Below are positions 1-64,000 of a stretch of 64,000 nt of DNA, piece after piece (positions within the stretch are counted from its first letter, which is position 1; each line of letters opens with the position of its first letter). Source of the stretch: Saccostrea echinata (Eukaryota); contig NW_026889805.1 in assembly GCF_033153115.1 (NCBI RefSeq), positions 7,812,001 through 7,876,000 of the forward strand. Reading direction: 5' to 3'. Under the pieces are notes generated by a model. It was not told the origin of the DNA. It was given only the letters and a program-made list of their open reading frames with translations, and ran no database searches. The position numbers and the translations under genes were made by a program.

Positions 1-3000
1 AGTTTTGGCCTTGTCCTCTGAGGGTTTACCACCAAGTCCTGAGAACATCCCACCACTTCCTCCACCACCAAACAGACCGCCAGATGACTGACCACTAGGG
101 GCACTAAAATCAAATTTTACATTGAGTCTGACCATATAAATTTTTTTTTTCGGTAACCTAGAACTGCACTTCAATTTTTTGAAACTTTCATATCAAACAT
201 TACTGGGGATCTCAAATTGATTTCTGAGGTCCAGTGACTCCAGTCTATATTGTGACTGTGATTCTTATCTGTAATACCCCAAAACCCTCCAAGTTTTTTT
301 TTGGTCATAGCCTTCAGTTCAAAATAATGATGTTTAATTGTATATTTGATGTCTTCTCATCACAAAACCTACATTTGTGAAGAGAGGAGCACATCAGTTA
401 CATTTGTAAAAATCTTACCTGCCAAAACCACCACCAAATGGACTTGAAGTGCTTCCTGTAGATTGTCCAAACACTCCTGGATTTGTTTGACCAAATCCTG
501 ACACAGAAGTGGTTGTGGCAGTGCCTCCAAATCCCAGACCACCCCCTGAGGTGCCAAATCCCCCACTAGAGGATGTATTTCCAAACCCTGTCCCAGCTGT
601 AGAGGTTCCAAACAGTGGTGCTGGCTGGCCAAAAGCAGAAGAAGAGGTGCCAGTTGGTGTTCCAAATAAATTCTTTGCTGGACTTCCCTGACCAAATGTG
701 GAACCTGTTGCAGGAGAATCTTCAGTGCCGGACAGGAGTCCTCCAAGCATTGAAGGCTTTGGTCCAGTAGAACTCTGACCAAACCCTCCTGACCCACTTT
801 GACCAAATAAGCCAGTACCAGAACTTGAAGTGATAGACGTTGAGGAAACTTGACCAAACAATCCAGTTCCTGTTGTGGATGCCGTTGTAGCTCCTGCTGT
901 TCCAAATAACCCACCTCCAGATGTGGAAATTGTGACTGACTGTCCAAATAAGCCGGAGCCAGAAGTTGAAGTTGATGTGCTTGGTTGTCCAAAGGATCCT
1001 GACACAGAGGTAGTTTGTTGTCCAAAAAGCCCACCTCCAGACCCTGAAGTTGTTGTTTGTTGTCCAAAAAGTCCAGCACCAGATCCAGAGGTTGTTGTTT
1101 GTTGTCCAAAAAGCCCACCTCCAGACCCTGAAGTTGTTGTTTGTTGTCCAAAAAGTCCAGCTTCAGACCCTTGAGTTGTTGTCTGCTGGCCAAATAATCC
1201 TGATCCAGATCCTGAAGTTGTTGTTTTTTGACCAAATAATCCCAATCCAGATCCTGAAGTTGTTGTTTGTTGGCCAAATAATCCTGATCCAGAGGTTGAT
1301 GTTTGTTGTCCAAACAGTCCTGTTCCAGTAAAGGAAGTAGCTGTAGATGTTTGTTCAAATGCACCACTGCCAGAAGTTAAAGGTCTCCCAAACAACCCAG
1401 ACTCTGAACTGGAGTAGGATGGTGGGGCTACTGTTGTTTGTCCAAACATTCCAGATGTGGCTGTTGTCTGTTGTCCAAATAATCCTTGACCAGCACTAGA
1501 AACTGTAGATGAAGATTGGCCAAACAGTCCTGTTCCAGAAGTTGTTGGCTTTTGTTCAAATAATCCTGATCCTGAATTAGATGATACTGTTGTCACAGCT
1601 TCCCCCTTAAATATCCCTCCTGCTGCACTGGTTGAAGCAGGCATTTTTGAATCTTGACCAGTGGGAGTGGCCTCAGAAGTTGTAGCATTTGAAGTAGTTA
1701 GTTGCCCAAATACACCACCTGCACTGGTTGCAGATGCTTGAGAAGAATTTGCTTTACCAAATAACCCAGTACCATCAGAAGAAGTTGTACTCTGGCCAAA
1801 CAACCCAGTTGCAGCAGTTGTTGCTGGTGCTGATTTTTCTGTTTCTTCCTCCTTTGTAGACTTGTCCAAGAGTCCCCCACTGTGAGCAAAGGGCTGTGCA
1901 AACAGACTTCCCCCAGTTACCAAATTAGTCAATTCATATGGTTTACCAGCTGTTGGTGTAGCTTTGTCAGAAGCATCTGTAACAGATGCTGTGTTGCCTG
2001 TGGGTTGTCCAAATAAACTAGACCCTGTACTCGTGGACTGGCCAAACACCCCTTTAGATGCTGATTTGTCAGTCAATGATTGGCTTGATGGTGATTTTCC
2101 AAATCCAAACAGTCCACTCATGGCTGTCTTGCCTGTGGTGGACTCTGCCTCTGCTGTTGCTGACTTTGACTCTGTTTCTGGTTTCTCAGGTCCCTTATTG
2201 TCTGTGTTGGTCTGGTCTTTTGTGACATCACTTCTTCCAAAGTCTACTTCTTCTTCATCAGATTCAGTTGAGAGTGCTGTAATTTTATGATGAAACTCAA
2301 TATCAAGATATCAGGTAATCAATTCTGCTAAACAAAATTATGTACTTGGAGGTAAGTCATGAAAATCTTCTGAGAGATAGAAACATACATTTCATTACAC
2401 CAAGCAAATCTTTTTTCAGGATCTAGTACCTTTTGCAAGAAGTGGTGAAGAAATGGGTTTTGATTCTTCCATTTTATTTTCCTCAGTCTTGGGCGGCTGG
2501 CCAAACAGATTTTTGCCCCCAAATCCAGAGGAAGCATCACCTCCAAACTTGAAAGCTACAAAGTAATAATTTTATCACTCAGTATTTATAAAAATTAACA
2601 GAAAACTTCCACAAGTGCATTATATGAGGTGCAACATTCTAAACAGAATGTTCAAAGATGCAAAGTATATGCATTTTTAATTTGCATTTCTGTGGTCTGT
2701 TCATTTTTTGTTGAACACAAATTTTCACTGTTTTCATGGATGAGACAAACTACAAATTTATCTGATCAAGCACTACCTATTGATAGAATAGGACGAGGTA
2801 GCATTCCACAAAATTACATCAACAAAAGTGTATTGTTTGCCAATATCACAATCCCCACAAAAATTAATGAAACCACAGGTGCTTGTGATAAACTAGACAC
2901 ATACCAAAATCTTTTCATTGTTTTTGACAAGTTACACTTATTTTAATCATTTGAAAATTAAATAGCACATTTAATATTGAATTTTGGCACAACCCTACCT

Positions 3001-6000
3001 GTTTTGGGGGTTGAGGTGTTTGTTGGAGTTTTGTTATCAGTCTTGAGTCCTTGGAACCCTCCACCAAAGACAGGGGCTGTTTGACTTCCCCCAGAAAAGC
3101 TGGTAAACCCTGACAAACCCTGTCCAAAACCATGTGTAGGGAGCAGTGCTGGCTTTGTAGTCTTCACTGAAAAAGCTGTAGGTAGACCAGTGGCAGGCTT
3201 CCTCTCAGCTACAAGAAAATTTTAAAAAAGAAGTTTATACCCCTGGTACATCTCTATTTCAGTTTTCAGAACAAGTTACTATCTTAAATGAAGATTTTTT
3301 TTTTCCACAAAACCAGTTTATGAACTTTAAATGATTAATTAACTTGGCCCGGTTTCACAATTTAGTTAAGGGACCATATCTCATTGCCACACAATTTATT
3401 TGCTAATGAACTAGAAAATCGATACAGTCAGAGATGGCCCAACTAAGGGCTGTCAAAGGAAAGTGACAACTGTACTTTTAGTACAGACAACTGTACTTTT
3501 AGTACAGTAATGTTAGGAACGAAATACTGTATAAGTGGAAATTTTAGTGAGACGAAAATTTAGCGATGTATCCTAAAAAATTGATATTTATTTTTAGTGA
3601 GAAGTAATTTTAGCAATTTTGAAATGCTAACTAAAGAAGCTATTACAAATAAATTTTTAGCGATATTCGATTTTAGCAATTTCATCACCCTTGCTAATAA
3701 TGCCAAAATTAAATCCTCGCTAAATTTTCTACTTATACAATATAGCACATAAGGAAGGTACCATGGAATCATTCTGATATATGTGTTAAATTATTATGTA
3801 AAGACTGGACATAAATATATAGAAGATATTCAATATGTAGTTGGATAAGGAATTTATTTCACGAGTGGGACAGGATTTTTTTTTATATATTTTTTGTGCA
3901 AAGCACAAGTGAATATATAAAAAAAAAAAATCCTTTCTCAAGAGTATCCAAATATTTTTTCCAGAAGCCTGAAAAGTAATTTGAACTGACCTATTTTCCT
4001 ATTGAGTGGCTCAGAATCGTGTTCACTGTCCGGGTCTTGTTCCTCGTCATAATCGTCCTCCTCCTCATAATCATCGTCATCATCCTCTTCCTCCTCAGTC
4101 ACATCAGAAGATGTTGTAGGTGTAATGTCCTCAAACTGCGGGTACGAATCTGACGGCTTCACTAAAAATGATTGCCAAAGAAAAAGAATTTAAGTCTATA
4201 GTAAAAAATAACCATTGTCAGACTCTGTATATGACCCAAAGAAACATACATTGTACATTTCTTTATGTATTTTACATGTAAATGTATATACTAAACAGCT
4301 CAGCATTAGCAAATATGTACAACAATGTTTGAAATACATGTTTGAAACATAAAACTTACAATTTTGGGGAACCTTTGGCTGGAAACTAATCATGGGGGAT
4401 GAGGTCTTTCCAATGTTGGAAAACTGGAACAATATGGACATTTTCATTAATTATGGACATTTTCATTTTAAAACGACGATGGACCTAATTCATTTCTGTA
4501 ATAGATTTTTTATTCAAATTTTAATATGAGGTAAAGTGACTTTTGGTGAGTTAAAATCAATGAAAAAATCATATAGTCATCGATATAGATTTTTAATGGG
4601 GAGCATTTCGAAAATTGGCGATGGAAATCGATAATTACTAAAAGGAAGTAAATGGAAATTGCCTGCCTGAATTCGGGTATAAGAGTGATCATTGAAAAAA
4701 ATTCTGCAATAGAATTTTTGTTCATATTAAAGGACAATGTTTACTAGACAATTTACCAGCAAATTATGCCCAAAAATAAATGGGTGATCGGCTTAGATTT
4801 TTCAGGGGGGCATGTCAAACGCAGGTGTAGGGCACATTTTGGGGGGAATTTTCAATGAAAATACCTTGGCCAAATAAATGAATTATTTATAAAAGTAACA
4901 AATGAATATAAAATCGAAATATTTACAATATTTTTGAATTGAGAGGAAACGATTGAATATCTTTAAAAGAATTAAAAATGTATAATTTTTATCTTTTGTA
5001 ATAGATAATTAAGTCAATTTGATTCAAAGCATATGCACGGTTTTCTGCGCAGTGGCTCGAAATTTCGAATTAGGTCCGTCGTCCTTAAATGCTAACTGTA
5101 TTTCAACAGTCTTTTGTGTGGTACAAACATTTGCAAGCATAAAAAATTGTGAAATTTTGTAGCCAAGGAGAAACAACAATAGAAAGGACAAAGTTATGTT
5201 AAAAAAAATCAAAATGTGCAAGAAACACATAGTTTGAAAGAAAGAATTGTTTACTCTATTGTGTTTAATGATTTTGAGAACAAATACAATTATCTACATT
5301 TGCAAATTTTTTCCATTATATAACACTATTTGATCGATGTGTATTTATACCTGTATAAAACAGGTTTGTCACTTGACCATAAAGGCATTGTTAATTCGTA
5401 AATGATTGAGGAAATTTCACAGTAACGTCATAAGTGGTCGATGTGTTCAACATATTCAATCTACACCATTGATGTTTGGAAAAATATCATTGCATGGATT
5501 TCACATTATAATATGCAAATATTTGTTATAAATCAGTCACAAATCTAAATATAAGTAATAAGGTATCACTTTAAAACATTCATCGGGATATAAATACGGG
5601 TTGGTACATTACCAAATCTACCATATAACCCTTCTGGCTTTATATATCCATGTATATATCCAAATGAATGTTTAAAAATGATACTTCATTTCTATTTCTT
5701 AAATAATTTGAAATTTTAAAGAAAACTTATTCAAGTACCAGGTACATGTATGAAACCCAGAATACATGTACTGTGATAATTACCATGAGACCTTGCTGGT
5801 AGCTGTTTGGTTTGACCTGTGTGTTGAGCTGATGTTTGATTCCTGTCTCCTTTCCTGGGCTGAGAGGGTGTAAGCCCTGACTGGCAAGCTGGCGGGCTCC
5901 ATTGTGAGAGGTGGCTCGTAAAATCGTCCTTCCTTGTATTGAAGGCTTCAACTCAGTTCTGACCTCTGAAAAATGACCATCAAATTTTACTAGAAACACC

Positions 6001-9000
6001 AAACATTTTTATTTTCCTGAAAAAAAATTTACTTTTTAAAATTTCTACAGAAAATGTTTTCTTTTCAAACTTTTTAATTTCACATGTGTTTATGCCTGTA
6101 TTGAAATGCTGAATTAACAACGTAACAAACCTGCAGGAGGGGGTGCTTTGGTTGGTGAACTTTGCCTGCTAAGGGCCTGACGGATCTTTTCTGTTGAAGC
6201 CAGCCTGGACATTGACAAGTTCTCTAAAATCAGCAAAGAAATCAAATGAAGACAATATAAATATTCATACAAAATGCGCTGCTGTGGGCTTTTATCAAAA
6301 ACTGTGATGCTTAACTTATAGGTAAGGTTGAAGACGAAAGATTTAGACCTGATTAAATAGCCTTCAGCAAGATTTATCTGTTCAAAAACTTGTAAATGGC
6401 TTCTTCACTGTATTCAAGAACTGAATGGACAAAATGAGGGCAAGTACATGTATATTGAGTAGATCATAAAAAAATATGACAAAGTAACACACTGTATTCC
6501 TGTGAAGAAAGCTACTTACCGGGTCTTGTTGACTTGACCTTTGCAACTGTTTTCCGAGACAGGTACTCTCTAAGTTTAGCCTGCTTGTGAGGAATAAGGG
6601 AATAATTTCTGGGTGTATTCTTGTTGTTTCCTGGAGATTTTGGGGGACTTTCCAGTAAGGAATCTGCCAAAGATGACAACTCCGCAGGTCCTCTATGATA
6701 AACACAAAGATAATATGCAATCAAACTAGAAATCTGATGAGTCAGCAAGGGCCCCGTCGAGGGGTAGAAATATAAGGGTGCAGATTAGGGGATGAGAATT
6801 TTACTTGATTACAAAACTTTAAATATATATAAAGAATAAGCAACAGCAACTGCTAAATATCCAATAACCTGTAAATAGTATCCTTGTATTTAAATAAGGC
6901 AGTAAAAAACCTCATATATCTATTATAACTAAATTAAATGTATATTTAAAGAAGAATGAAGCATGTGTTTTATAAAATGCCAGCCTTCAGTGAATGCAAA
7001 TATCACCCAGGCTTGACCTTAACTTCAAAACAAATATCAGTTGCAGACAAAGGTGTTAATTAATCTCAAAGTGACAGAAAGATAACCCTCTAAAATTTTC
7101 TGCAAACCAGCAAGATAATCAATCCCAGGGGATTAATTATGCTGCTCTCTAAATCTTTTCTTCTAAGTTTACAATAAGAACTTTTTCAGCAATGATAGAA
7201 TGAGGTTATTATCTGAATACCTGTTAAAATAAATAGTATTCTTGAATTTACATAAGGCAGAAAAAAATTTTAAAAAATAAAATCGTAATAAAAAAGATAT
7301 CTTTATCTACATGTATATCTTGTTTTTAGAATTTAATAAAATGATAACTCATTGTGTATTTTACCAAAATAAAGTATGAACATTATTTAAATCCACATTT
7401 CAGAGAATGAAAACATCATTCAAAATTGACCTTAACTTCAAAACAAACTTCATTTGCAGACAGAGGTGTTAATTAATCTCAATGTGGCAGATAAAGATAA
7501 ATGCTTTGGATCTTCTTCAAGAAGGAAGTTAATTAATCCCAAGAGACTCACTGCAGCCTTTCATAGTTTACAATAGGAACATTCTCAGCAGTTCTCTCTC
7601 TTTGCCCATTCACTCTTATACAAAGTTAAGAAATCTACCCCACCACCCCAGCTCCAAACCGGATGACATAGAGACCCAAACTTAGCATCAAAATATGTCT
7701 TACTGCCTATTCAACCAACATACCAAATTTGAACTTAATTGGTTGACCCTAAAAAAGTTATTAGAAAAAAAACAGAAAATTTGTGGATGGAAGAATGACA
7801 GACAGACAGACAGACGGACAGACAGATGGACAGACAGACAGACAGAGTGATTATTATAGGGCACCCGCAAATCCTTGCGGGGCCCTAATGAACACTTGAT
7901 TTGTTAGTATATAGTCCACTCTGTTGGTTTCTACAGACCTTGATGAATCTGGATGTTTCCATGTGGAATTCTTGTTGTACAGCTTTAACTGTTTCAGCTG
8001 TGATTCCAAGTCACACAACTGATTCTTCTCTCTAATAATCAAATTTCTGTTGCTCTTTATCACCTGGTATATTCCATCAGTTGTGGGCCTTTTAATTCTG
8101 AAAAAATATACACACTGTTCAAGTTCATAACAAGAGGTCTGAGGGCCTTAATGGAACCCGAGTATAATACAACCCTGTAAAGGATCTATAGAAGTACATG
8201 TATATAATAAAATACAATGATAGATGCCAAAAACGAGATCAACAACATAGTCTAGTATTCAGCAACAACTCAAAACAGATCTAGTTACTTGTCTGTACTT
8301 GCCAGTGCTAATACACTCCTCTTTGTCACTATCAACAGACTAAACAATACAGCAGTGCTTGAGCACATAAAACTGTATACACTTAGTAAACCCAGCAAAA
8401 TCCCTCTTACATTGGCCTCTCTTGGTTTTTGAATAACATTTAATGTACAAATATGAGTTATTTTTGTCTCATTTTTATTTACATATTATATACAAGTCTG
8501 CCTACAAATGAAAAACTATTAGTACTTTCTGTATTATAAATTAAAAAAAAATCTTGTGCACTTCTTTTATATAATTGACTTATCAATTATTTTATTGACA
8601 GTGATTATAGGTGAGTAACAGATAGGAGTAACTTCTAAAGTAGAGTACAAATTTCTCTACAAGATCAATACAGCCCTGCCTAGCACCAGCACTTCCCCCA
8701 ATGGTCAAGAATTTCACAAATCTGGTAAAAACACCCTTACTCATTACAACTTTGTACTCTGTATCCTAGTTCCCAGAAGCAGAGAAGACAGTTTTCAAAG
8801 AACTAGTGCATTTCACTAACATTTTGTAAGACCAGAGCCCCTGACCAGGGGGAACAGGGACCACGAAATTAAAAAAAATTGTTTCCTTTTACCCATATAT
8901 GCCAAAATTGGTTGAAATTGGTCTAGCGGTTCCAGAGTAGAAGCTGAAACTGTTTCAAATTTTATAACTAATGGACAACACATGACAAGGGATAAAAACA

Positions 9001-12000
9001 CAGGCCTTTAGATCGCTTTAATCCAACTTACAAAAATTTTTATTTTAAGTTCCAGCTGTAATTATTTCCACTAAAATCATTCCAATAGGTCACTACTTCT
9101 GCACTCAATCTAATCTCAATTAATCTGTACATGTATATACTTTACTGAGCATGTATTTTGGCATATATTCCAAATTTAGCACAAAAGACCTTAGCACTCT
9201 CACTATTTGTATGTTTTATATTTGAATGAGATATATTTTGGTGATTTTCATGAATTAGAACTACGACACTAGTACATATATTTCTTTGCATTATAATTGA
9301 ATAAAACCATATTTTGACTGTATTATTGAATTAGCATACAAAGGATATGCTTTACACACCTTTGTTTTTTATTATGCTGTTCTATCAGCTTTACACACCC
9401 ATATTTCTTATTATGCTGTTCTATCAGCTTTACACATCCTTGTTTCTTATTATGCTATTCGATCAGCTTTATTGGCAACCTCAGACTAGTAACTTTATTA
9501 CTGCCTCTAGCCCTTGGGCTAGTAGCCAGTATTGGAACTGCATAACCCTGTATTGTGCTATTCTATCAGCTTTACACATTCTATCAGCTTTACACATTCT
9601 ATCAGCTTTACACATTCTATCAGCTTTACACACCCTTGTTTCTTATTATGCTGTACTATCAGCTTTACATACCCTTGTTTCTTATCATGCTATTCTTTCA
9701 ACTTTACACACCCTTGTTTCTTATCATGCTGTTCTATCAGCTTTACATACCCTTGTTTCTTTTATGCTCTTCTATCAGCTTTACACACCCTTGTTTTTTA
9801 TCATTCTATTCTATCAGCCTTACACACCTTTGTTTCTTATTATGCTATTCTATCAGCTTTACACACCCTTGTTTCTTATTATCATATGCTATTCTATCAG
9901 CTTTACACACACTTGTTACTTATTATGCTGTTCTATCGGCTTTATACACCCTTATTTCTTATCAAGCTATTCTATCAGCTTTACACACCCTTGTTTCTTT
10001 TTCTTCCTGCTTTGATAATCCTGCCATTCTTGATCTAATATGGCATCAACATCCCTCAGGCCCTGGTCAAGCAGCTGTTGTTGCTGCTGTAGATCCCTCA
10101 TTGTGCTGAGACTCTTGGGGTCTAGAGCCCTGTTCCTCATCATAAGACCGTACTGAGGGTCGGTGTTTAGCTGCTCCCTCATCTTACAGTCCTCCACCAT
10201 AGCGAAACAATCCAGACATAGGCCCTTCAAGTCCGATATCTCTTTACTCTGTTCCTACAAACAATCAAACTTGATGTATAGTACCCTGTAAAATCAATAG
10301 AAACTGCTTAGATTAGCACTTGAAGTGCAGTTCTCTCCCTTAGTCTATCTCAAAAAAACAATTTTGTCATTAAAGCAGGATTGATGAAAGTAAATCAAAT
10401 AACAAATCATTTGTTTCTTTTCTGAAAAAAAAGTGTGATACAAATCTAGAGTATGTTTTTGCCCACATGGTGAGTACAAATTTTATCAGAACTTTTCTGG
10501 ATTCCGACTGATTTGCTTCTACTGTAAATGGCATTTCAATTTCGCCATTTCCTAACCTATAAAACATTTTCTAGACCTTGAATTGCATCAACATTATTTC
10601 TATGCAAGGTCTCAATGTGTTAAAAGTGGAATTTCATACAAGTCATGTTGAAATCCACAGAAAAATGAGAGACTGTAGATAGCAATCTCAGAGATTTTGA
10701 TATGAAAAGATTGAGATTTTTATTTTAATAAGTGGACAGAAAATCAAAGGCCCAAAAATATCAATGTGGGCTAGTAAAACTTGTAATGTTGGGGGCCCAC
10801 ATGGCCACTAAGGTTTTAAAGGTTATTTGCAACCCTGAAACAGTAATTAAAAAAACGATAAAACCTTGGTATCAATAGCAGAAAATTGAATAAAGATTCT
10901 CTTCACTGTACAACTGAGTTCTGAAGTCTATCTAAAACAAGCAAATTACATTGACTGTATCTATAGAATTTTGCTGGTTACCTTAGTGTTGGCCTTGACC
11001 TCTCCACAGAAATTGCTGACCTCTATTGTGCTGTTACGGAGTCTCTGCATGTCTGCCTTACTGCCGATTGTCTCCCTAACCGCTCCAGCTCGTTGTTTAA
11101 ATTCTCGCAACTCTCTCTCAAAATGAGCAATCTTTATACAAAAAAGCATACATTTTAAAAAACATTACAAAAACTTGCAATATTTTCTCAAATTAAACCC
11201 TTATTTTTCAATTAAAGAATTTGTTTGTGAAAGTTTGTAAGTAAAATAATAACCAATAATTCTGCATTCATAAATGAATGAGTTTTAATTTACCTCCTCA
11301 GCAATAGATGCACTAAAAGTGTCATTCAAGGAATCAGATGTAGCATTAGAAGTCAACGTTTTCTGACTGGAATCTGAAAAAATACGGGGAATGATGTCTT
11401 CAAGTTGAACATACATGTACATGTAGTAACATACTCTAGCAAATCTGTCTCCACTATGTATGTGTACACAGGGACAAACACTGAACCCTTTTAGAGCAAA
11501 TCTTTCAGTACATCAACTAACCTACTACAGATATATTGTGAGTCACTATTGTACATCAACTAACCTACTACAGATATATTGTGAGTCACTATTGTACATC
11601 AACTAACCTACTACAGATATATTGAGTCACTATTGTACATCAACTAACCTACAACAGCTATAGTCTGAGTCACTATTGAATATTAACCTACTACAGCTAT
11701 AATCTGAGTCACTATTGTACATCAAATGACCAGCTAGATATATTCTGAGTCACTTGTACATCAACTAACCTACTACAGATATATTCTGAGTCACTATTGT
11801 ACATCAACTAACCTAAAACAGCTATAGTCTGAGTCACTATTGAATATTAACTGACCTACTACAGCTATAATCTGAGTCACTATTGTACATCAAATGACCA
11901 GCTAGATATATTCTGAGTCACTTGTACATCAACTAACCTACTACAGATATATTCTGAGTCACTATTGTACATCAACTAACCTACTACAGATATATTCTGA

Positions 12001-45449: not shown

Positions 45450-48400
45450 TTAGACAGTTTCCATTGGTTCTGCCGCCTTTACTGTTGTCTTGACAATGTC
45501 AAAAGGAATTTTCTTGACCTCTGTTTTCAGCACTGCAGTTGTTCCTTTCTTGTATCTATAGGATCCTTGCCTGAAGTGAAAAGATATTTCACAAATAGTG
45601 ATGTGCCAAAATAACCTAGAAAAGCATTTGGAATATATCTACAGTAATATCCAGAGTAATCAGGATTACAATGAATTTGTATCTAGAATAATGATTTTAC
45701 CTCTGTCCTTTAAGGTTAGCCTCGTCATAGGGTCGTAAATATTCCACTTTGTCTTTAGTTATAACGCAGACATCCACATTACTTCCTGAGCCCAAATCAT
45801 TAAATATACCAGCTGCTATTGCATCTCTAACAAGCTTTTTGGCTTCCTCTTTCTGTTGAAAATTACATTAACTATTAGCATCGTAATATAAGTATTGTAA
45901 ACTTTAAAAAATGTTATTGTTAAGAACTGTAAGTTCTGTTTCAGGCTTTGTTCCTGGACCCCCTCCACCATCAGGACTGGACCTGTGCTCCTTTTTACAG
46001 TTCTTCAATGTTGGTGTCTGGGTGGGGGGTTGAAAAGGTAATACAGACTCCAGTTCATATATAATTCAGAAAGGGTCAGCTTTACCTGTACAATGCTGAA
46101 AAATCTCATTACCTAGAATTGCTCTTCTGATAAATTGTACAAACCTATGACTTCTGTTCTAAGCCTTTTATTGTAAAGATTTCGATATAGCCTTAAAATT
46201 CCAGAAGTAGGTCACGTAGCCTATTTTTGGGTTGAAAATATCTGTGGACCCAAGTGAGTCAACTAACACGGATGATTCTAAGCCTCTTAATATCAATACC
46301 GAGATACAACTATGAAATTCTAAAAGTACCAGAAGGTTCACTTTTATCCACTTTTTTGAAATTCAACAAGTAGGTCACCATGACTTTTTTTTTTTAAACA
46401 AATTTTGAGAACCATCATTTTAGTTGCATCAACTAGCTAGGGTGGATGATCCTAGGCTTAACAGTGTCCAAGATATGCATTTAATACAATTTAAAAATGA
46501 GTACCTGCAAAATTCAAAAGTAGGTCACTGTGATCTACTATTTCATAAATATGTATCAAGGTCCCATGATGCATCAACTTACAAGGTTTGATGATTCTAA
46601 ACCTCTCAGTATCTGAAATAATGAACTAAAATATTTTGAAAATGATTCTGAAAGTAGGTCATGATGACCTACTTTTTGACACACTTCATGGCCCCTTGAT
46701 GAATAAACTGAAGAGTTTTGATGATCATAGACTTCAAAGTATCCAAGATATGCATCAGAATGAATTTGAAAATGAAAACCTGTGAAATTCAAAAAGTAGG
46801 TTCCTTTGACCTGCTTTTTGAGTCAACAACATGAGGTCCTAATTTTGCATCAACTGCCAAGATTTGATGATCCTAGTCATTGTTGTGGGCAAAATATCAA
46901 AGTTTTACAAAACATCATTTTAGGTTAACTTTAAAGTGACTATGAGATCACATCCTTTGCCCTAGGGTATTGCCTTAAACATTTTTTTCCACAACATATC
47001 CTCATCTTTATGATAAGTTTGGTGAAAAATCTGCCTGGTGGTTCTTGAGAAGAAGATTTTTAGCAACCAATACATTTGTTTTTATTTCCCAATTTATCTC
47101 TTTTGTTTGAGAATCACATCCATTGGTACAAATGAAAGCCCTAGGGCCAAGGATACTCTGATTTGACAAAAATTGGTCAAGGGGTTCTTGAAATATAGTC
47201 CATATTCCAAAAAGTGGACAAGCAAGAGCAAATAATGCTACAGTAAACATTTACCTCCATGTTTGGTTTGAATCCCCTCTCAAAAACTGACATTGCTGCT
47301 AATGATCCTGAACCTATGAATTCAAATAAAAAGAATTTTATCAAAACTGTACACAGTGATATGAAAATTACTTGCTGCCAGTATCTATGCTTTTAGGAAA
47401 GACATACTATGGTGAAAAATGTAATTTACATATTACTCAGTAACTTGGCTAGATAAGCACTGAAAGTGCTGTCAGGAATCTTAGATCAGTATATTGGTAA
47501 AACTTCAGGTAAGTAGGAATGTGCATACCCATTGTTACATAAGGAAGTTTGTCTGTAGACCCATGAGGATACACACTGTACAGATGTGGACCTGTAGAAT
47601 CCACACCTCCCAGAACCAAAGCAGCACTAATATGGCCTTGGTACCTGAAAAGCAGTGCAAAGATTAATATACATATATATGCTCTTTAACATTCTACAAT
47701 GGGTTTCTATCTTAAGCTTCTATCTTTTAGAAATTTTGTTTGATAGTTTAGATGACATTAACTTTAATTTTTATCAATACCTAAATAGCATCTGTTTAAG
47801 GAGTCTGTTAGCTGTACAGACTCGAGGCTTCCGTCCTGTGTTAAGTCGGTGAAGTTCCAGTTGAGATGATATTATCTGAGTGGTCATTTCTGTGTCTGCC
47901 GCTGTCCCAGCTCCACAGCAACTGTAACAATCAAAAACTCTATACAACACCGCTACAGCAGTTTCTGAGTTCTAATTATGATTGAAAATACTCAATCAGA
48001 TATTCACAATCTAACACATATGTACTCCATGTATATGTAGATCCTAAAAAATTGCAATGTTTTTCAAACTGAACATGAAATGTATTAACATTTCATGAAT
48101 TAACTTGGAATATCTAGTAAAAGGCAAATGACAGATTAACCTGAAGTTATGAGTCCTTTAAATATTACACACATATTGAAAATTCTTACTATATATTATC
48201 AGCAATATAGTGAATCTTGCTGCAGTTTTTGTCTGCCACAACAGTGTCTTCTGTGGCTCTCGTGTCAGCTCCAAGCACTACACCATCCTAAATAGATGGG
48301 TAGAAAACTCAGTAATAACATATTAAAAATACATTGTGCTATATATTCAGTATCTCGAACACCAAAATCTCTAATATCATGGACTTTTTGAAGTGATTTC

Positions 48401-50740
48401 ATTTGGAAGTCCCCAACCACTTCTTCTTTTTAAAGTATTTTACCCCTGATATCTCGAATCCTTGGATATCTTTTTTTCTCGGTCTCATCGAGTTCAAGAT
48501 AGTGAGGTGTGACTGTATATATTCACACACATGTATAAAACCCATTATTACAGGGTCGATTATTTTTCAGGTTTCTTTGGTTGAAAAGGATGTTCATCTT
48601 CTAAACTTTGAATGCGATTGTTGGATGAATTCATGACAGGATTTGCTGTAACTGTGTATTTTTATATTACATTAATAACCATCAATGTATCAAATAATAA
48701 CAGATATCTGTCCATATATCAGAATACAGCACAAATACTGATATGCCTGGCTTTCTAAAATAATTCTAATACCCCTCTTTCAAATCTATTATCAAATTTA
48801 GCACAGGCAATCAGTGTAATGTAGTAGATTTTCACAAATTATATCAATATTGTTCTGAAGCATTGTAAATATTGGTGATTTTGATTATGTTGATGTAAAA
48901 TCTATTAATGAAAATCTCACTTATAGTGTAGCAGTTAGAATTCCTGTTTCTTACTTTGAATCTAGATGGTTATTGTTTAATAAGTAATATAACCATTTAC
49001 TCTATCTAAAGTAACCTCATGAAAATAGGATGCTTTATTCTGGAAGGAGAGATTTGTTTGCTTGTCTTTACCTGTTAAACACTGGTATTGGTAAAACATG
49101 AAAATTTAACTCCATAATGCCAATACTAAATAAGGGACCATTTTTTAAAACAAAAATGAAGGGAACTTCAAATTAAGAACAAATAATTTTGATTTACCTT
49201 ATAAATAATGCCAACAATTGTTGTTCCTGTCTTGTAAGCAGTAGGGGCTTTTATTCCCTTTTCTTCAAACATTTGGTTCCTGAAAATAGAACAACAGTGC
49301 CAATAACCTAATAACATAATGCCTGATTGAAGTACAATGTAAATTCACTAATTAAATTTCCGTGCCATTTAATTTTCATTGATTTGTGTTATGAAGATCC
49401 CAAGAATTTATATCAACGAAAATTTGACCACACAAAATTAAGTGATTTTACAGTGTTAGCTAATAACTTCTAAATAAAATGAAAATATCCAAGAGTAATC
49501 TTGAAACTTAAACCATGCCACCTTTGCTAAGTGCATTTATGATTTGAGTGATATTCATGTCAGTTCACATCAAATATTCCAGATTCAGGTTTTCAGGTTT
49601 TACCTTTTCAGGGGAAAATACACTGCATAGTTAGGCCAAAAAAAATAATAGTCTTGTTTCCTGCTACCCGACCTACCCTATTTTTTGCACCCGACCCTTA
49701 AGTTTTTTTTAAGTTTTGGAAGAAAAAAAATCGAGAATTTCCGGAATTTCATCGTTCTGTCACCATAATCAGTTTTCGTGTTAGCACAAAACAAGCATTT
49801 CATGAAATTCTTGTTTTAAATATGGACTTTCATAAAATACCACTTGAGTTGTGCATAAAAAGACATGAAATTCAATTTTAAAAGACAATATTGACCTGTG
49901 ACATGTTTAATTTTATCTTGTATTAGTTCATATCCAAAAAATGCTGTCAGAAAAAAAAATAAAATAAAAATATAAAATAAAATAATTTTCCTACCTACCT
50001 ATCCTATTTTTTGCAGGCTGGTAGCAGGAAACAAGACTATTATTTTTTTTGGCCTTAACTTTCTATAACAATAATATTCTTGGTCTGACACTATTTCTGA
50101 TTTTTAAGTAATATAATCATGATATGATTGTGTAATTATGTACACATCTGATTCAGTTGAGGAGACAGAATTTATAAGAAATGCAATTCACTGACAAAAT
50201 GCTCCAGTACTGGAGAAAAATTATTGATAGAACCCAACAGTGTGTCTTACACATTTTTCTTTTCACAAGAGCTGAATGTATTGATTTTACATAATGCGCA
50301 GTGTAATTCATAAATCTTAGCGTTTAGCGTGCTTAGCTACAAATTCATTGGGTGGTTCGTGTTTTGCATAGAAAATAATATTAGAGAAAATTCGAACTAT
50401 TCTAAAAGGAGAGATATTTCATGTTACCATGCCTTCTAGAGTAGTTTTAAAAATATTTATCTTGAAATAACATTATCTTTGAATAGCACAACTAAAACAT
50501 CAATCCCAGCTGACAATAAAACACTTTTTTCTTTTATAAAATTGCATTGTCATACCCTACCGGCAGTACATCATTATTTAACTTATAAAAGGTGTGATAC
50601 AGATGCTGGACTACAAAAGAAGATCAAACAAACGTTTAACTATAAATTCTGACTTTTATAATAACAATATATGCATACCGACGACAGTTTTCGAATGAAA
50701 AACCACCAGTTGGTGGTTCGGCAAGCAGAGTCGACGCCAT
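45450..50740 (-). CDS. PSMB7: Proteasome subunit beta type-7 (beta2), 276 aa
   Basis: Exons 50740-50679, 49279-49198, 48287-48190, 47921-47781, 47644-47529, 47313-47255, 45852-45701, 45570-45450 (831 nt). Propeptide [11 protein letters not shown], cleavage site KTG|[50 protein letters not shown]. Confidence 0.97.
46130..47230 (+). repeat. Degenerate HINE-like tandem repeats in a PSMB7 intron
   Basis: Recurrent AAGTAGGTCA / TGATTCTAAGCCT blocks; 3' part resembles the HINE 3' blocks (GTTCTTGAGAAGAAGATTTT). Confidence 0.5.
49634..50054. mobile_element. PIF/Harbinger (Tourist-like) MITE with TTA TSD
   Basis: TTA|GGCCAAAAAAAATAATAGTCTTGTTTCCTGCTACC ... GGTAGCAGGAAACAAGACTATTATTTTTTTTGGCC|TTA; ~35-bp TIRs. 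Confidence 0.88.
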
Positions 50741-50961: not shown

Positions 50962-52130
50962 GCCCTAACCTTTGGAGCCTGATTAGTGCCTAATCTTGGA
51001 GCCTAATTAGCGCCCTAATTATGGCGCCTAACAGATGTTCTAAATGTATAAGGTGTCATGACACCTAACGATGGTGCAGCGGCTATAATACTTGGAGCCT
51101 AACGCCCTAACAGGTGCCCTAACCATGGAGTCTAATGCCCTAACCATGGCCGTAAGACCCGGGGTGGGGAACGGGGGGGCTGTGTCCCCCAATAATTTTG
51201 CCGATATATAGATTACTATAGTAAACAAAGATACTATATGCGTGTGTCCCCTCAATAGAAACGCCTTTTTGCCGAGGTTTGTCAAGGAATTTTTGGTAGA
51301 TGATGATGACCTTTTTTCTTTGTTTGTCAGGAAATTTTTGGTGGTGCCCCCTCAACAGTCAACTGAAAAATGTATGGCTGTGCCCCCTCGAACTGAAATT
51401 GTTTCCTACGGGCCTGCTAACAGGTGCCCTACCGATGGAGCCTGATGTCCTAACAGGTGCCCTAACTATGGAGCCTAATGTCCTAACAGGTGCCCTTACG
51501 ATGTAGCTTAATGTCCTAACAGGTGCCCTTACCATGGAGTCTAATGTAGTAACAGGTGCCCTAATGATGGAGCCTAATATCCTAACAGGTGCCCTTACCA
51601 TGGAGCCTAATGCTCTAACAGGTGCCCTAACTATGGAGTCTAACGCTCTAACAGGTGCCCTAATGATGGAGCCTAATTAATGTCCTAACAGGTGCCCTAA
51701 CGATGGAGCCTAATATCCTAACAGGTGCCCTAAGCATGGAGTCTAATGTCCTAACAGGTGCCCTAAGCATGGAGTCTAATGTCCTAACAGGTGCCCTAAC
51801 GATGGAGCCTAATGCCCTAACAGGTGCCCTAACTATAGAGTCTAATCTCCTAACAGGTGTCCTAACAATGGAGCCTAATGTCCTAACAAGTGCTGTAACC
51901 ATGGAGTCTAATGTCCTAACAGGTGCCCTAACGATGGAGCCTAATGCCCTAACAGGTGCCCTAACTATGGAGTCTAATCTCCTAAAAGGTGCTCTAACGA
52001 TGGAGCCAAATGCCCTAGCAGGTGCCTTAACGATGGAGCCTAATGCTCTAACAGGTGCCCTGACTATGGAGTCTTATCTCCTAACAGGTGCCCTAACTAT
52101 GGAGCCTAATGCTCTAACAGGTGCCCTAAT
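50962..52130. repeat. 33-bp minisatellite upstream of PSMB7
   Basis: Unit CTAACAGGTGCCCTAACGATGGAGCCTAATGTC, >20 copies. Confidence 0.92.
51145..51416. mobile_element. MITE inserted in the 33-bp minisatellite, 5-bp TSD CTAAC
   Basis: CTAAC|CATGGCCGTAAGA ... TCCTACGGGCCTG|CTAAC. Removing the element and one TSD restores a repeat unit. Confidence 0.8.
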
Positions 52131-52238
52131 GACGTTAGGTGTCAGATTTTCAGATTTTACTAAAACCAGGAGACATACATCTCATAGGTATAAATATATT
52201 ATACATATAGTACACAATAGAACATTACATGAGCGAGA

Positions 52239-52899
52239 TATAATACACAGTTATGGAATGGGTACGAGGGAAATAGCAAATTTATGGTTCCCCGAGGGAG
52301 GAAACTATTTCCCGAGGCGGCGAAGCCGCCGAGGGAAATAGTTTCCTCCCTCGGGGAACCATAAATTTGCTATTTCCCGAGTTCCCATTCCATAACTGTT
52401 TTATTATACCGAAACAATCATAGACGATTTAATTTTTTCACCAGACATTCCGACATTTAAAAAAAAAAAAAAAAAACCAATGTAGAGGCAAAATCACAAA
52501 TACATGCGGTTTAACACATTGTTATAAGTAATGCATCGTGTCCTAAAACAATTAAATTATTTTTAAAAAGTATTTTCACTGACATTTCGAAGAATTATCG
52601 TTGCCTTCATTTCGCTAGAATCCAAGTATGATTTTGACATCGCATGTCGAAATGTTTTGACGTCATAGTTACATTGCTAATAACATGACGTCACAGACTC
52701 GAGATTTCTTAAACGCTCCGCCCACTGAACACTTTGATTGGTTAAAATTACTAATAAATATTCATGAGGGAGTAGTCCCAGGGAGTAGCTCTGATTTTCC
52801 AGGGAGTAGTCCTCAGATGAGGGAAATAGTCTCTTCTCGTGGAAATAGACAGTTTTATGGTATTAATTTTATACAGAGTAATTGCAGTGGAGGTATAAT
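52239..52899. mobile_element. Foldback/hairpin-bearing non-autonomous element (Crypton-like, tentative)
   Basis: Hairpin 52247-52399 centred on 52323. TATAAT at both ends (52239, 52894). Partial arm copy at ~52820-52848. Confidence 0.55.
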
Positions 52900-58590: not shown

Positions 58591-58763
58591 GATCATCGAA
58601 CGGCATTTAAATCATGCAATAATAAGGAAAACACTCGAGATGCAATGGGTGCTTTATTTATGATCTAAAAACTGTACATAAACCAAAGAACTTTTACCCA
58701 GCTATAAACAAAGTTCTCTTTAATTACATGTACTATGTGTTCAGTACTTGCTAAATCTATAAA

Positions 58764-61700
58764 TCAGCACGAGTTGTCTTCGTCACTATTTAACCTGGAG
58801 ATCATATATGCCCTATTCTCTCGTTGTCGCACTGATAAATAAACTCTCTGATACGATTTCTGTATTAATTGTCTATTCAAAACAACCAATTTATTCTCTA
58901 TCTGTAATTAAAAAAAAACAGTCATATTTACAATTAAAAAAAAGAATGCAAACCAATGATGGTCGAATTTTCGTGTCACGAACTCACCTGTTGTATAGAG
59001 ATCTTCAGGTCTTCATTCTCACTCTCCAGGCTCTGGTGTAAACTACATTCCTCCCCGTCCTGAGTTTGGTTGTCTTCTAGAAATCTCACATCTCGTGCAG
59101 ATTCTGTAGATCTCATAATGACCAGGATCTTTGTGGAAGGAAATCAGAAAATACAACTGCATGATGAACCAAATACCGAGAAGAGTATACAAGAAAAGTA
59201 CATTTAAATACCCTTGAAATGAATTATATTTTCTTTTGCTTTGTAATACCTTTGGAAGAAAGAGAAAACCCATTGACAGGTAGCAGGAGAGAAGGACACA
59301 CCCGGCCACGAAAGCGTACTTCGCAACGTGCTGCTTGCTGATAATGAAGCATAACGGTAAAGAAATGGAAACAAGTACCTATAATAAACCATATTTACTG
59401 AATTAGTTTGATTAAAATCAACTTCTTTGAGAAGACCACTTTTTTATCCAACATCAATAAATTGTCTCACCATGATATTGTAGATCGCAATGGCAACAGA
59501 TCGGGAGTCTTTATAGTTCTGGAGTTTAACACTCCGGGTTTCAAAGGCCAGAAAAATACCAAACAGTAAAATTACTCCATTGAATCCAAGTGTTACGCCT
59601 GCAATTGAATAATTAATTATCTTTGTTAAGCTTTATTTTACATAAGATACTATTTTCCTTCATAAATTGGCACAGAAAAAAATGCATGAAATACGGTCCA
59701 TCCTGTGACATACGCCGTATGTCTAAACTTGCCTACAGTATGGTCCTCGTACAGGACAACAGGAGGAACAATAAATACACACACACACACACATTAAACA
59801 GTATAAAAATTAAACGTCACCTAGCCAAATGCTCATTTGTTTTGCATCACAAAACTCTAGTTGGGGGCGGAGTTTTATGTCCTCATCAGTGTTGGTGGGA
59901 ACTTCAAGATCAAATATGAGCAACTGTCGAAACAGTGGGTCTTTAATTTGCAGAGATGTCAGAATAATTACATTTATTGTCTGGATAAGGATAAATACCG
60001 CATACAATTCCGATGAATTTATCGTCTACAAAAGATGTAGTTGAATTCTAGAAACAAGAAAAAAAATAGCATATGAGTGTATAAGTTCGAGAGTTTTAAG
60101 ACCCGCATCTACATCCATTTTTATTCATAAGATGCAATTACAAAAAAAAACCCACCTTTACTCCCCAAATAAAATAGATAATAAAATCCAGAAGAACATT
60201 CACGCTAGTATCCTTCATATAAATGTACCTTTCCTTTTGTTTTTGTATTTATTCTGTGAACCATCCAAACTTTTGAAAACAATGCTCCATATCCTACAGA
60301 GAACCCTGCCAGAAGACACCAAGCCCTCAGCTGACAAATGACAGTAAATGTTTCAGGAGAGATATAATTCTGGTCCAGTCCAAAAAGAGGAACTGCCATC
60401 AAGGAAATAATGCAACCCAGTATCACTAAAACGTTCATTACCGGCTGAGAATCTACGATGCACCTACAGAAATTATTGTCCATAAATGTTTGATCTATAT
60501 TTTGTACCAGGCAGTTTTGTGGTCAGAAAATTTCTTAAAACCTAAGTGTCAAAAACCTACATTCGATATCTATTGAGGAAAGTAAAGATGCAGCAAAAGA
60601 TCCCAAAACAGACGCCCCCTCCAGCAAGTAAAGTGAAGGTAAGGAATACGTTTGAAGGAATAACCTTTGGTGACGTAATAATGCGAGTGTGGTCTGGAGG
60701 AGGGTGTCCGCCTGAAAAATAAAAATAGAGTTGAGTGTAAAAAGCTTTGAATCTGAAATACTGGAATTGATATCTGATGGACACACCCATTTATATTTTC
60801 ACTTACCAATCCACCTTTCAACACCAAGCCATGAAAGGTTGTCCGACATTTGATGGTAGCATCCAAGGGTGTTATATGTTCCATCTATGATGCATGCAAA
60901 GTATTCGTATCATTTTACATATTATATAGGTACTCCAATTTTTTATACATATTCTAGTTTCCTTTATTTAATGCTATCTAACTCTAAAAACGACCGCCAT
61001 AAATTTTATTCTAAAAATCGATCTACATACGCACTTGTCATTTGCTCCACCATTGTCCACGCAATGCGATCTCCTTCAGATGAAAACGCTACGATGCCCT
61101 ATTTAGAAATAGGACTTCATATTCTTTCAGCTTTCATTTGATTATATCAAGTAAATAACATTTTTCAAGTTGAGCTGGAACTTACCGACACACCAAGAAA
61201 GTGAGTAGCATTCATTGAGGAGTAAATCTTTTGTGATATATCCTCTCTACTGTACTGGAAGTTCTGAAGACTAGATCCAATATGTATTAGTCTATAATAA
61301 AATGCACCATAAAAGGTTTTCAAAAAGTACACATTAAAACAATTATAGAACATTTCTGAGGCACATACTTTTTCTCCGTCTTGTTCAGCGCTAAAGCCAA
61401 GGCCCAGATGGCATCGAATGCAAGTGGAGCCTCTGGATAACCCGAAACGTCCGTCCTGTAATTCAGCCTTCTATCTAGCTCAGTTTTAAATTCTGCTGAT
61501 GTCTATGGTTGCATAAAAAAATAAGACACGTTACACTTCCTACGGTATTTCTATATTGGAATATGTTTCCAAAACGTCAAAAGAACAAATCCTTGATAAA
61601 TTACCATTCCTGAAACTGTTCTGGCGAGTCTGTCTTGGTGAATAATCTCTGCTTCAGTCGTGAAGTGCCCCTCCAGTGCTAACTTCAACTGAACCGGAAT

Positions 61701-63778
61701 ACAGTCCACTTCTGGGTCAGGCTTTTCATACCATTTATCAGGGTACCAGCCAACAAGGAACCACACGTAACGTTTGCCGTACAGTTTGTTCTTATATGCC
61801 TACTTTCCAAGCATAAAACATCTGTTTCCAAAAGAATAACTTAGGGTAAAAGATACACTGATAAAAAAAAATAAGTACATGTAATTTTTTACCTCACAGA
61901 AAACTTTTCTTGCCAGATTTTCATAAAACATCCCAACAATAATCCTCGCATCCCGTCTCTGTTAAAAAAAACAGGCATACATCACGTACATTATACATAT
62001 ATTACAATATCTGTATAAAATACATATATTGTAAGCATAAAATACATATTCACATTTTTGTATAAAACACAAATATGTAATGTCTATTCGTATTGCACAC
62101 ATTCATTCTAATTTGATTCCTTCGATATATACGTCCCCATCTCTCAATCTGTTCCACTGGCTAATCGCATTCTCGTTCAAGCCGCCCCTGCACCCCCTCC
62201 TACACACACACACACACACACTACGTGCCTTCGAAAACAAGGTTCCTTGACAAATGTATTCATTTACACTAAAAATTCTAATTAATAGTACTTGGATGTT
62301 TTCAAAAGCCCCCGGAAGCTCATGGAATTTAAGGGTTTTTAATCAGGACATTACCTTAGAATATTCTTTTTTTAACCACCGTAGATCTACTAAATATTAT
62401 TTTTTAAAAATTGCCGAGTTTTGACAAAACTTACTGCTCCACAAAAAGCATTTCCTGTTATGAATAAAGCAATTGTCAAATAAACCTACATATTTATATT
62501 CATGACAGTTAATATTGTTTTGAATTTTACTAAACAAAGTGGCCGCTATTATGGACAAAAGGAAAAACCAAAGAAAATGTAATAAACAGAAAATTCAATG
62601 TTTTGGTAGTTGTTTTAGAATTTATTTCACAAGTAAGACAGTTTTTATTATCATAAATGCGAAATAGATTCTATGTACATGTATATCCAACTTCAAAAAT
62701 TGAACATTTTCTATTTAAAATGCTATTACATCTAATTATTGATTCTTTTGAAATTATAGTGCTAGTACGACGCGCTAAATCTGTTTTTTTTTTAAATTAT
62801 TAACTTAAAGGGAATTAATAAATAACATATTTTATGATTTGCTATAGTTTTGAATTGGCAATATTATGAAATTCGCCCTTGAAATTCTAAATCTAGTTTT
62901 TTTTTTAAATTATAAACCCTATCTAATTTTGATCTATTACTGAACTTTCGACATCTTTTCTTTTCCATTTTTTTTTTTTTTTTTTTTTTTTTGTTTATTT
63001 TATTTAATCATTTTTGTGAAAAATCTGTGTATTCATTTGCGCTGTTGCATTGAGGGCGCTACGCTACTTACTTTCAAAACTTTCAGTACTTTGATTTTCT
63101 TTGAGAGAAAAGGGAGCAATAAGGTCTACCCACTCTCTTGTATGAGTACTCAAACGTTTACTTATTTAACATAAAGTATAATGGATGCACCGGGACTTTC
63201 TTATTGTATGGTGATAGTCACCGTGGTCTAACATCTCACCGACTGCACTATCGTCTAACTATTCGGGCTAATGTAATATGTTTCTTTAATAATTTTCTTA
63301 GTGATAAATCTAATTTTGACAAATCTTAAATTGAAACACATTTGTAAGCATACCTTAAGATTTGCCACCGCATTGGAGGGGTTCGATAAGAATTCTTGTC
63401 TCGTTACAATCTCCATACCAGCAGCTTTAATACGCTTTACAAGATCTTCCTCTGTCTGAAAAAAGTATATAATTGCTGCAGTTTACTGTTTCTCCTCACT
63501 CTTCATAAGAAGTTATTTTGGCAGAAAATTTATGGAACAACTTTATGAACGTCTAATGAAAACTTATGAACTAATGAATTCTCGTGCATGGCAATAGAAC
63601 TTCTTACAGACGAAAATACTTCTTCCTTTTGTCGAATCGTGGCTATCCTACTCCACCCAAACTTCTGGAATATTTTGATTCTCGCCGGATTGTGTAGTGT
63701 GGCTGATGGATGTGTCCTGAAGAAACTTGGAAACCGTCGTCTGTCAGAGAGTGAAGGAGAGCTGGATCCGTAACCTAA
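58764..63778 (-). CDS. GABBR1: GABA-B receptor subunit 1-like class C GPCR (3' part, ~680 aa; 5' exons beyond the right edge)
   Basis: Exons 63778-63608, 63455-63354, 61958-61893, 61799-61605, 61502-61369, 61291-61186, 61098-61035, 60884-60807, 60711-60561, 60463-60229, 60025-59821, 59598-59471, 59378-59250, 59128-58988, 58901-58764, phases consistent. Motifs [100 protein letters not shown]-terminal coiled coil. AATAAA on the minus strand at ~58653-58658. Confidence 0.9.
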
Positions 63779-63822
63779 CTGTCAGAGATATATATAGAAT
63801 AGGGAAATTAGGAAACCCGGGA

Positions 63823-63828
<6 letters not shown>

Positions 63829-63901
<73 letters not shown>
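63829..63901. repeat. (TA)n microsatellite within a ~31-bp GAATAGGGAAATTAGGAAA repeat
   Basis: Seen directly in the sequence. Confidence 0.9.
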
Positions 63902-63903
<2 letters not shown>

Positions 63904-64000
63904 TAGAATAGAGAAATAAGGAAACTCGGGAAATATGAATAGGGAAATTAGGAAATCTGGGAAATTATATCCGAGTAAAAGAGAGTTGAACAACGTTATA

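What the first reader, a model, noticed from the sequence alone, without database searches (positions are those of the whole stretch)
1..64000. Ancient microsynteny with human 9q33-34 / MHC paralogon
Seen: gene order NUP214 - NEK6/7 - PLPP6/7 - FAM78 - PSMB7 - GABBR1-like within 64 kb. Established (recalled, should be verified): human NUP214, FAM78A and PLPP7 are neighbours at 9q34 with FAM78A/PLPP7 divergent; NEK6 and PSMB7 are adjacent at 9q33; NEK7 and FAM78B lie on 1q; GABBR1 is in the extended MHC on 6p. Inference: a protostome retains one compact ancestral block of the proto-MHC linkage group that is split in two in humans, implying long-term constraint on these neighbourhoods.
Basis: partly seen in the sequence, partly recalled or inferred. 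Interest (0 to 1): 0.7.

Follow-up and report, generated by a model that had tools for sequence, protein, structure and literature searches.

The report
Ancient gene neighbourhood kept in oyster
An oyster carries six intact genes in a row whose vertebrate counterparts belong to the MHC-related chromosome regions; a three-gene core is likely a neighbourhood older than the split of molluscs and vertebrates, probably held by a shared promoter, but the whole row as one ancestral block is unproven.

Summary
The gene order is real: NUP214(-), NEK6/7(+), PLPP6/7(-), FAM78(+), PSMB7(-), GABBR1(-) in an oyster. Full models for NEK6/7, PLPP6/7, FAM78, PSMB7 and the in-window part of GABBR1 are open with canonical splice sites. 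RNA contigs confirm the listed PLPP, FAM78 and PSMB7 introns. FAM78 and PLPP6/7 have accession numbers within 4 in 12 of 16 mollusc annotation sets. NUP214 lies 4-12 gene ids from PLPP6/7 in 5 of 5 amphioxus, and cattle list NUP214-FAM78A-PLPP7 together, so this core is likely an ancient microsynteny. PLPP and FAM78 are head-to-head 490 bp apart, and FAM78 and PSMB7 3' ends abut. PSMB7 stays near FAM78 in mussels, scallops and abalones. It lies 295-662 ids from PLPP in all five amphioxus, and on other contigs in Ptychodera, Lingula and Octopus. GABBR1 is also distant in amphioxus. NEK position outside this oyster was not tested in invertebrates. Verdict: a new example of a known kind (ancient microsynteny on the proto-MHC linkage group). 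'One compact ancestral block split in humans' is about 30% likely.

The parts
1..26328 (-). NUP214 (runs off the left edge of the window; candidate ATG at 26328; not fully modelled)
   Evidence: FG repeats PF13634; PDB hits only to Nup214, weak; exon pieces; further FG exons in L011
29267..33947 (+). NEK6/7 kinase, 9 exons, glutamine-rich tail
   Evidence: Open model; Pkinase; PDB best hits NEK7
39372..41752 (-). PLPP6/7 lipid phosphate phosphatase, 2 coding exons, three PAP2 motifs intact
   Evidence: intron joined in 4 of 4 runs; one match in own genome
41753..42241 (.). PLPP-FAM78 head-to-head spacer, likely bidirectional promoter; holds a minus-strand 5' UTR intron 41767-42003
   Evidence: 490 bp ATG to ATG; CpG o/e 1.06 versus 0.41 for the window; PLPP contigs reach 41832-41850 and FAM78 contigs start 42104-42172; UTR intron in run X1 only
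42242..45118 (+). FAM78, co-orthologue of vertebrate FAM78A/B, 3 exons
   Evidence: introns joined in RNA contigs; one match in own genome
45119..45449 (.). FAM78-PSMB7 tail-to-tail spacer with opposed poly(A) hexamers
   Evidence: 332 bp stop to stop; AATAAA on + at 45229 and 45241, on - at 45285; contigs run through it in X3 and X4
45450..50740 (-). PSMB7 (proteasome beta-2; a proto-MHC anchor family)
   Evidence: Open model; PDB; homologues; 5 introns listed as joined
58764..64000 (-). GABBR1, 3' 15 exons; 5' end lies right of the window
   Evidence: Open model; PDB GABBR1 far above GABBR2; N-terminal exon in L001

Best explanation
The window holds six real genes in a row, and its NUP214 / PLPP6-7 / FAM78 core is likely an ancient bilaterian microsynteny on the proto-MHC linkage group, probably held at the PLPP-FAM78 junction by a shared promoter, while PSMB7 and GABBR1 likely joined from elsewhere on that linkage group in molluscs. 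Mechanism: genes stay on the ancestral chromosome while inversions shuffle their order. A breakpoint in the roughly 250-490 bp between PLPP and FAM78 would cut a promoter or 5' exon, and one in the 332 bp between FAM78 and PSMB7 would cut abutting 3' ends, so these junctions rarely break. Shown: order, spacing, splicing, continuity of transcript contigs, amphioxus id distances. Inferred: shared promoter, selection, and the timing of the PSMB7 join.
For: FAM78-PLPP6 accession gap of 4 or less in 12 of 16 mollusc annotation sets; same 0.53 Mb scaffold in Mizuhopecten and same 1.57 Mb scaffold in Haliotis rubra; Solemya locus tags 010812 and 010816. Amphioxus: AIF1L-NUP214, then 3-11 unlisted ids, then PLPP6/7, in 5 of 5 species. 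Cattle: NUP214, FAM78A, PLPP7. PSMB7 far from PLPP in 5 of 5 amphioxus; different contigs in Ptychodera (PLPP vs PSMB7), Lingula and Octopus vulgaris (FAM78 vs PSMB7). RNA contigs. Linkage groups persist while order is scrambled (PMC8809688 passages); proto-MHC genes are dispersed along the amphioxus chromosome (PMC13012124 passages).
Against: FAM78 and NEK6/7 are absent from the amphioxus table, so the FAM78-PLPP junction itself is shown outside molluscs only by gene order in cattle. Accession gaps are a proxy: 4 of 16 FAM78-PLPP gaps are larger (10, 302, 662, 1463), and the 16 sets are about three to five independent lineages. NEK6/7 and PSMB7, neighbours in cattle, flank the PLPP-FAM78 pair here, which an old five-gene block would explain. 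FAM78 and PSMB7 share a chromosome-length contig in Tubulanus and Watersipora (accession gap about 115). RNA data are unstranded contigs: they show no start sites and no co-expression. Short spacers may simply be small targets for breakpoints.
Confidence: 0.6

Rival explanations
1. One reading: NUP214, FAM78, PLPP6/7, NEK6/7 and PSMB7 formed one block in the bilaterian ancestor; molluscs kept it with local inversions and it split on the chordate stem.
For: Triple plus pair within 6 genes arose in at most 1.7% of null runs. PSMB7 within 3 accessions of FAM78 in 6 of 15 mollusc sets and 10-48 in 5 more. The two mammalian groups are interleaved in the oyster. One chordate split costs no more steps than one molluscan join. 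Same contig in Tubulanus and Watersipora. Amphioxus places PLPP6/7 beside SCAI and near GAPVD1, which lie in the cattle NEK6-PSMB7 window.
Against: No non-mollusc was seen with PSMB7 next to FAM78 or PLPP: far apart in 5 of 5 amphioxus; different contigs in Ptychodera, Lingula, Petromyzon; 0 of 40 metagenome FAM78 loci, most of them short. SCAI is on another oyster contig. The null assumes full scrambling and ignores that two separately conserved blocks can meet by chance.
Confidence: 0.28
2. Neutral remnant: no constraint; slowly rearranging lineages have not yet broken a few short spacers, and the rest is shared chromosome ancestry plus selection of a striking window.
For: A triple alone arises in up to 30% of null runs on an undiluted linkage group. 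The FAM78 neighbourhood differs in the longer rotifer-like loci L022 and L033 (taxon is my guess). No functional link between these genes was found in the literature searches.
Against: NUP214-PLPP proximity recurs in three deep lineages (oyster, amphioxus, cattle). Transcript contigs abut or overlap at two junctions, and the PLPP-FAM78 spacer is CpG-rich for this genome.
Confidence: 0.12

Closest known systems
Ancient conserved microsyntenic pairs (Irimia et al. 2012, PMC3514665; abstract and outline seen, supplement unavailable)
   Same: Unrelated genes kept adjacent across phyla; co-regulation of neighbours is one of the two causes named in the abstract.
   Different: I could not check whether FAM78-PLPP or NEK6-PSMB7 is among the nearly 600 pairs; no developmental regulator is in this window.
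Proto-MHC region (Abi-Rached 2002 and Vienne 2003, seen only as citations; PMC13012124 passages and Dataset S2 rows; bioRxiv 10.1101/2025.03.16.643586, one passage)
   Same: PSMB7/10 is a listed anchor family; amphioxus has one chromosome matching human 1, 6, 9 and 19, including 9q33.2-q34.3.
   Different: Only one anchor is in the window; PBX, BRD and NOTCH lie on other oyster contigs; PMC13012124 finds proto-MHC genes dispersed, not en bloc; no immune role is implied.
Ancestral linkage groups (Simakov et al. 2022, PMC8809688, passages)
   Same: Chromosome-level linkage kept across bilaterians with rare residual short-range links.
   Different: This is one local instance. That the proto-MHC group is ALG M is recalled, not read in the passages.
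Pan-cephalochordate microsynteny blocks 271 and 25 (PMC13012124 Dataset S2)
   Same: NUP214 ends block 271 and PLPP6/7 starts block 25, 4-12 ids apart.
   Different: Flanks are AIF1L, SCAI, HSD17B8 and DNTTIP2, not PSMB7 or GABBR1.

Membership tests
Ancient conserved microsynteny | Genes are orthologues or co-orthologues of the vertebrate genes | tested here: met
   FAM78 quick tree: the window gene is in the bivalve clade, and the named FAM78A clade is sister to a clade of unnamed rows I read as FAM78B; PLPP quick tree without any PLPP7 row plus the 'PLPP7,PLPP6' orthogroup; best hits for NEK, PSMB7, GABBR1, NUP214. No trees for those four.
Ancient conserved microsynteny | Close linkage in distant phyla: NUP214 / PLPP6-7 / FAM78 core | tested here: met
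   Oyster; 5 of 5 amphioxus for NUP214-PLPP (3-11 ids between); cattle. FAM78 is not in the amphioxus table.
Ancient conserved microsynteny | Close linkage in distant phyla: whole six-gene row | tested here: not met
   PSMB7 295-662 and GABBR1 188-616 ids from PLPP in 5 of 5 amphioxus; about 5 Mb between the groups in cattle.
Ancient conserved microsynteny | NEK6/7 linkage in other invertebrates | not tested
   No NEK homologue search was run; NEK6 and NEK7 are absent from the amphioxus table.
Ancient conserved microsynteny | More than chance given a shared chromosome | tested here: met
   0-1.7% for triple plus pair; single pairs are common. Parameters are my assumptions.
Co-regulated head-to-head pair | Divergent genes with starts under 1 kb apart | tested here: met
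   490 bp between start codons; transcript contigs leave about 250 bp or join.
Co-regulated head-to-head pair | Shared promoter activity and co-expression | not testable with these tools
   Only unstranded contigs were available.
Proto-MHC region | Holds anchor families | tested here: met
   PSMB7/10 is in the anchor list and in the window.
Proto-MHC region | Other anchors on the same chromosome | tested here: inconclusive
   0 of 3 anchors (PBX C4; BET and NOTCH C30) and 0 of 3 amphioxus-neighbour families (SCAI C25, Fcf2 C19/C41, GOST_TM C9) lie on C56; the assembly has 425 contigs, so chromosomes cannot be judged.
Genomic regulatory block | Developmental regulator with enhancers in bystander introns | tested here: not met
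   No developmental transcription factor among the six genes or the ORFs I picked from 100 kb each side; conserved non-coding elements were not tested.

The most novel reading that the evidence does not exclude
Bivalves and abalones preserve a five-gene segment of the bilaterian ancestor's proto-MHC chromosome (NUP214, NEK6/7, PLPP6/7, FAM78, PSMB7) that chordates split into the 9q33 and 9q34 groups. Its PLPP-FAM78 shared promoter has lasted since that ancestor because the uncharacterised FAM78 works with the polyisoprenoid-phosphate phosphatase.
Probability: 0.2. Interest if true: 0.5.

Novelty: new member of a known kind. Interest (0 to 1): 0.3.

Why it matters
It adds a concrete local gene order to reconstructions of the proto-MHC chromosome from the protostome side, where amphioxus shows dispersal. 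The durable PLPP6/7-FAM78 head-to-head pair gives a first guilt-by-association lead for FAM78, which has no Pfam family or solved relative here. The oyster enzyme keeps all three catalytic motifs, whereas the vertebrate gene at the syntenic place, PLPP7, is recalled as inactive. Hundreds of such ancient links are already known, so a specialist would find it useful, not surprising.

Tried and rejected
Metagenome scan for FAM78 loci: 40 loci, 0 of 40 with PLPP, PSMB7 or NEK6/7; 7 reach 10 kb or more; the window control found both profiles. The kinase beside FAM78 in 5 loci is only 22-23% identical to the window NEK. Fused gene models as a sign of adjacency: 0 of 139 FAM78 representatives matched a neighbour gene; 32 scanned in Pfam gave no relevant family. 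'Triangle' idea (oyster, amphioxus and mammal each keeping two of three sub-blocks): SCAI is not on this contig, so no support. The gene after PSMB7 in B. floridae is listed as a TLR, not NEK; the ids between NUP214 and PLPP could not be named. Irimia supplement unavailable; Robert 2022 file 3 holds GO tables (part 1 of 400 seen); the Simakov 2020 supplement was not seen because the paper reader closed; these may list the pairs. No run is on record as RNA; the laid contigs are spliced. NEK joints were not among the rows shown. ABHD16A naming got only generic hydrolase hits. Atlas search with a FAM78 homologue: one low-score FAM78B cluster. Earlier findings: none on this locus. Literature searches for this block listed no title or abstract start that describes it; most listed papers were not opened and subscription papers are not covered. 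The careful FAM78 tree did not finish; quick trees only.
Full report
Observation. The window is oyster DNA by protein similarity at G000:C56:7812001-7876000. It holds NUP214(-), NEK6/7(+), PLPP6/7(-), FAM78(+), PSMB7(-) and GABBR1(-) in that order. Models for NEK6/7, PLPP6/7, FAM78 and PSMB7 are open with canonical splice sites, one a GC donor, as is the in-window part of GABBR1. NUP214 rests on FG repeats, weak but exclusive PDB hits and exon pieces. PDB searches give NEK7, PSMB7 over PSMB10, and GABBR1 over GABBR2. FAM78 and PLPP have one match each in the genome. Contigs of five laid runs from three studies join the PLPP and FAM78 introns and the five listed PSMB7 introns.

Vertebrate side. 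No human genome was available, so human bands and orientations are recalled. Two cattle GWAS tables give the order: LAMC3, NUP214, FAM78A, PLPP7 at BTA11 100.94-101.52 Mb (PMC12171144, one passage), and NEK6, PSMB7 ... SCAI ... GAPVD1 at 95.3-96.5 Mb (PMC10818672, one passage). The assemblies may differ. With recalled orientations, only the FAM78-PLPP head-to-head junction is shared exactly, and the oyster order is 3-4 inversions from any joined mammalian order.

Molluscs. I used accession numbers and contig lengths as a proxy for position. FAM78 and PLPP6 are within 4 accessions in 12 of 16 annotation sets; the others are 10, 302, 662 and 1463. FAM78 and PSMB7 are within 3 in 6 of 15 sets, 10-48 in 5, and over 400 in 4. 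They share short scaffolds in Mizuhopecten (FAM78, PLPP), Ylistrum and Haliotis rubra (all three). Solemya tags for FAM78 and PLPP differ by 4. Large gaps need not mean distance: Mytilus californianus shows 3195 while its congeners show 1-3. The sets are clustered (6 Mytilus, 4 scallops, 4 Haliotis, 2 others). Against: Sinanodonta FAM78 and PSMB7 tags are about 1460 apart on one contig, and Octopus vulgaris has them on different chromosomes. NEK, NUP214 and GABBR1 were not traced in other molluscs.

Outside molluscs. Dataset S2 of PMC13012124 (rows seen) gives serial gene ids for five amphioxus; I read ids as positional. NUP214 follows AIF1L and is 9, 10, 4, 7 and 12 ids from PLPP6/7, which is followed by SCAI. 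PSMB7 is 662, 499, 295, 444 and 363 ids from PLPP, flanked by GPN1 and GPR107/108 with NCS1 nearby in four species; Bfl_015331 is a TLR. GABBR1 is 188-616 ids from PLPP. FAM78, NEK6/7, ABHD16 and CACYBP are not in the table. The paper's text says that one amphioxus chromosome matches human 1, 6, 9 and 19, and that proto-MHC genes are spread along it rather than en bloc. They do not in Lingula (two FAM78 copies) or Petromyzon (one copy seen). PLPP and PSMB7 differ in Ptychodera. None of 40 metagenome FAM78 loci carried a neighbour, but most are short.

Surroundings. In 100 kb on each side I found two ENDOG copies, TFIIB, a zf-HIT/BCD1 gene, an ABHD16A-like hydrolase (name recalled), CACYBP and lipoxygenases. 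From memory the first five map to human 9q34, 1p22, 1p22, 6p21 and 1q25, all MHC-paralogous regions. PBX, BET, NOTCH, SCAI, Fcf2 and GOST_TM matches lie on other contigs, 0 of 6 on C56. The oyster proto-MHC is therefore not compact, and chromosome assignment cannot be judged from 425 contigs.

Chance. In a simulation with genes kept on one linkage group and order scrambled, close pairs arose 2-14 times per group, a triple in 0.9-30% of runs, and a triple plus pair in 0-1.7% (six settings, 2000 runs each, parameters assumed). The pattern is not pure chance, but the model cannot tell one old block from two old blocks that met later.

Mechanism. PLPP and FAM78 start codons are 490 bp apart; FAM78 and PSMB7 stops are 332 bp apart. 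The PLPP-FAM78 spacer has CpG o/e 1.06 against 0.41 overall. PLPP contigs reach 41832-41850 and FAM78 contigs begin at 42104-42172. In run X1 a minus-strand intron at 41767-42003 links PLPP to sequence continuous with FAM78 exon 1. Contigs pass from FAM78 into PSMB7 in X3 and X4, with opposed poly(A) hexamers at 45229/45241 and 45285. A contig across two genes is not one transcript, and strand and start sites are unknown. I infer a shared promoter and abutting 3' ends that make these junctions costly or unlikely to break. NUP214 and NEK are also divergent, 2.9 kb apart. GABBR1 is 8 kb from PSMB7 across repeats, with no sign of constraint.

Comparison and verdict. This works like the co-regulated ancient pairs of Irimia et al. 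2012 (abstract and outline seen; supplement unavailable) on a linkage group whose persistence with scrambled order is established (PMC8809688 passages). PSMB7/10 is a listed proto-MHC anchor. Eight literature searches listed no paper on this block, but unseen supplements may contain the pairs. The core is likely ancient; the five-gene ancestral block is about 0.3 likely; inclusion of GABBR1 is unsupported. New member of a known kind, interest 0.3.

Noticed in passing
window 32566-33000 and 33457-33535: Degenerate tandem copies of the NEK exon 6 end fill intron 6 (with a 147-N stretch inside); the end of exon 8 is also duplicated.
   Followed up: no
window 33720-33947: NEK6/7 ends in a long glutamine-rich exon, unlike the short vertebrate tail (recalled).
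   Followed up: no
window 39372-41752: The PLPP6/7 gene keeps all three PAP2 catalytic motifs; the syntenic vertebrate gene PLPP7 is recalled as inactive and the active PLPP6 as lying elsewhere.
   Followed up: partly
L013-L015 (20-50 kb left of the window): Two tandem ENDOG copies; the exon tested hits ENDOG above EXOG in the PDB.
   Followed up: partly
L001-L007 (right of the window): zf-HIT/BCD1 gene divergent from GABBR1, an ABHD16A-like hydrolase (MHC class III gene in human, recalled) and CACYBP.
   Followed up: partly
L008-L010: Cluster of PLAT-domain and lipoxygenase genes.
   Followed up: no
L016:1870-8843: RING-variant (RING-CH) gene with an EGF-like stretch nearby.
   Followed up: no
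window 51300-52340: Tandem array of roughly 33-bp units between PSMB7 and GABBR1 that gives spurious long ORFs.
   Followed up: no
L022, L033: In compact rotifer-like loci (taxon guessed) FAM78 sits near RPS4 and an AGC-type kinase, with MSH2 in L022.
   Followed up: partly
L045, L046: Mollusc-like FAM78 copies have an extra intron near residue 165-170 of the last exon's match that the oyster lacks.
   Followed up: no
G000 C19:2149185 and C41:1469673: Two Fcf2 (DNTTIP2-type) matches with identical scores on different contigs, perhaps an uncollapsed haplotype.
   Followed up: no
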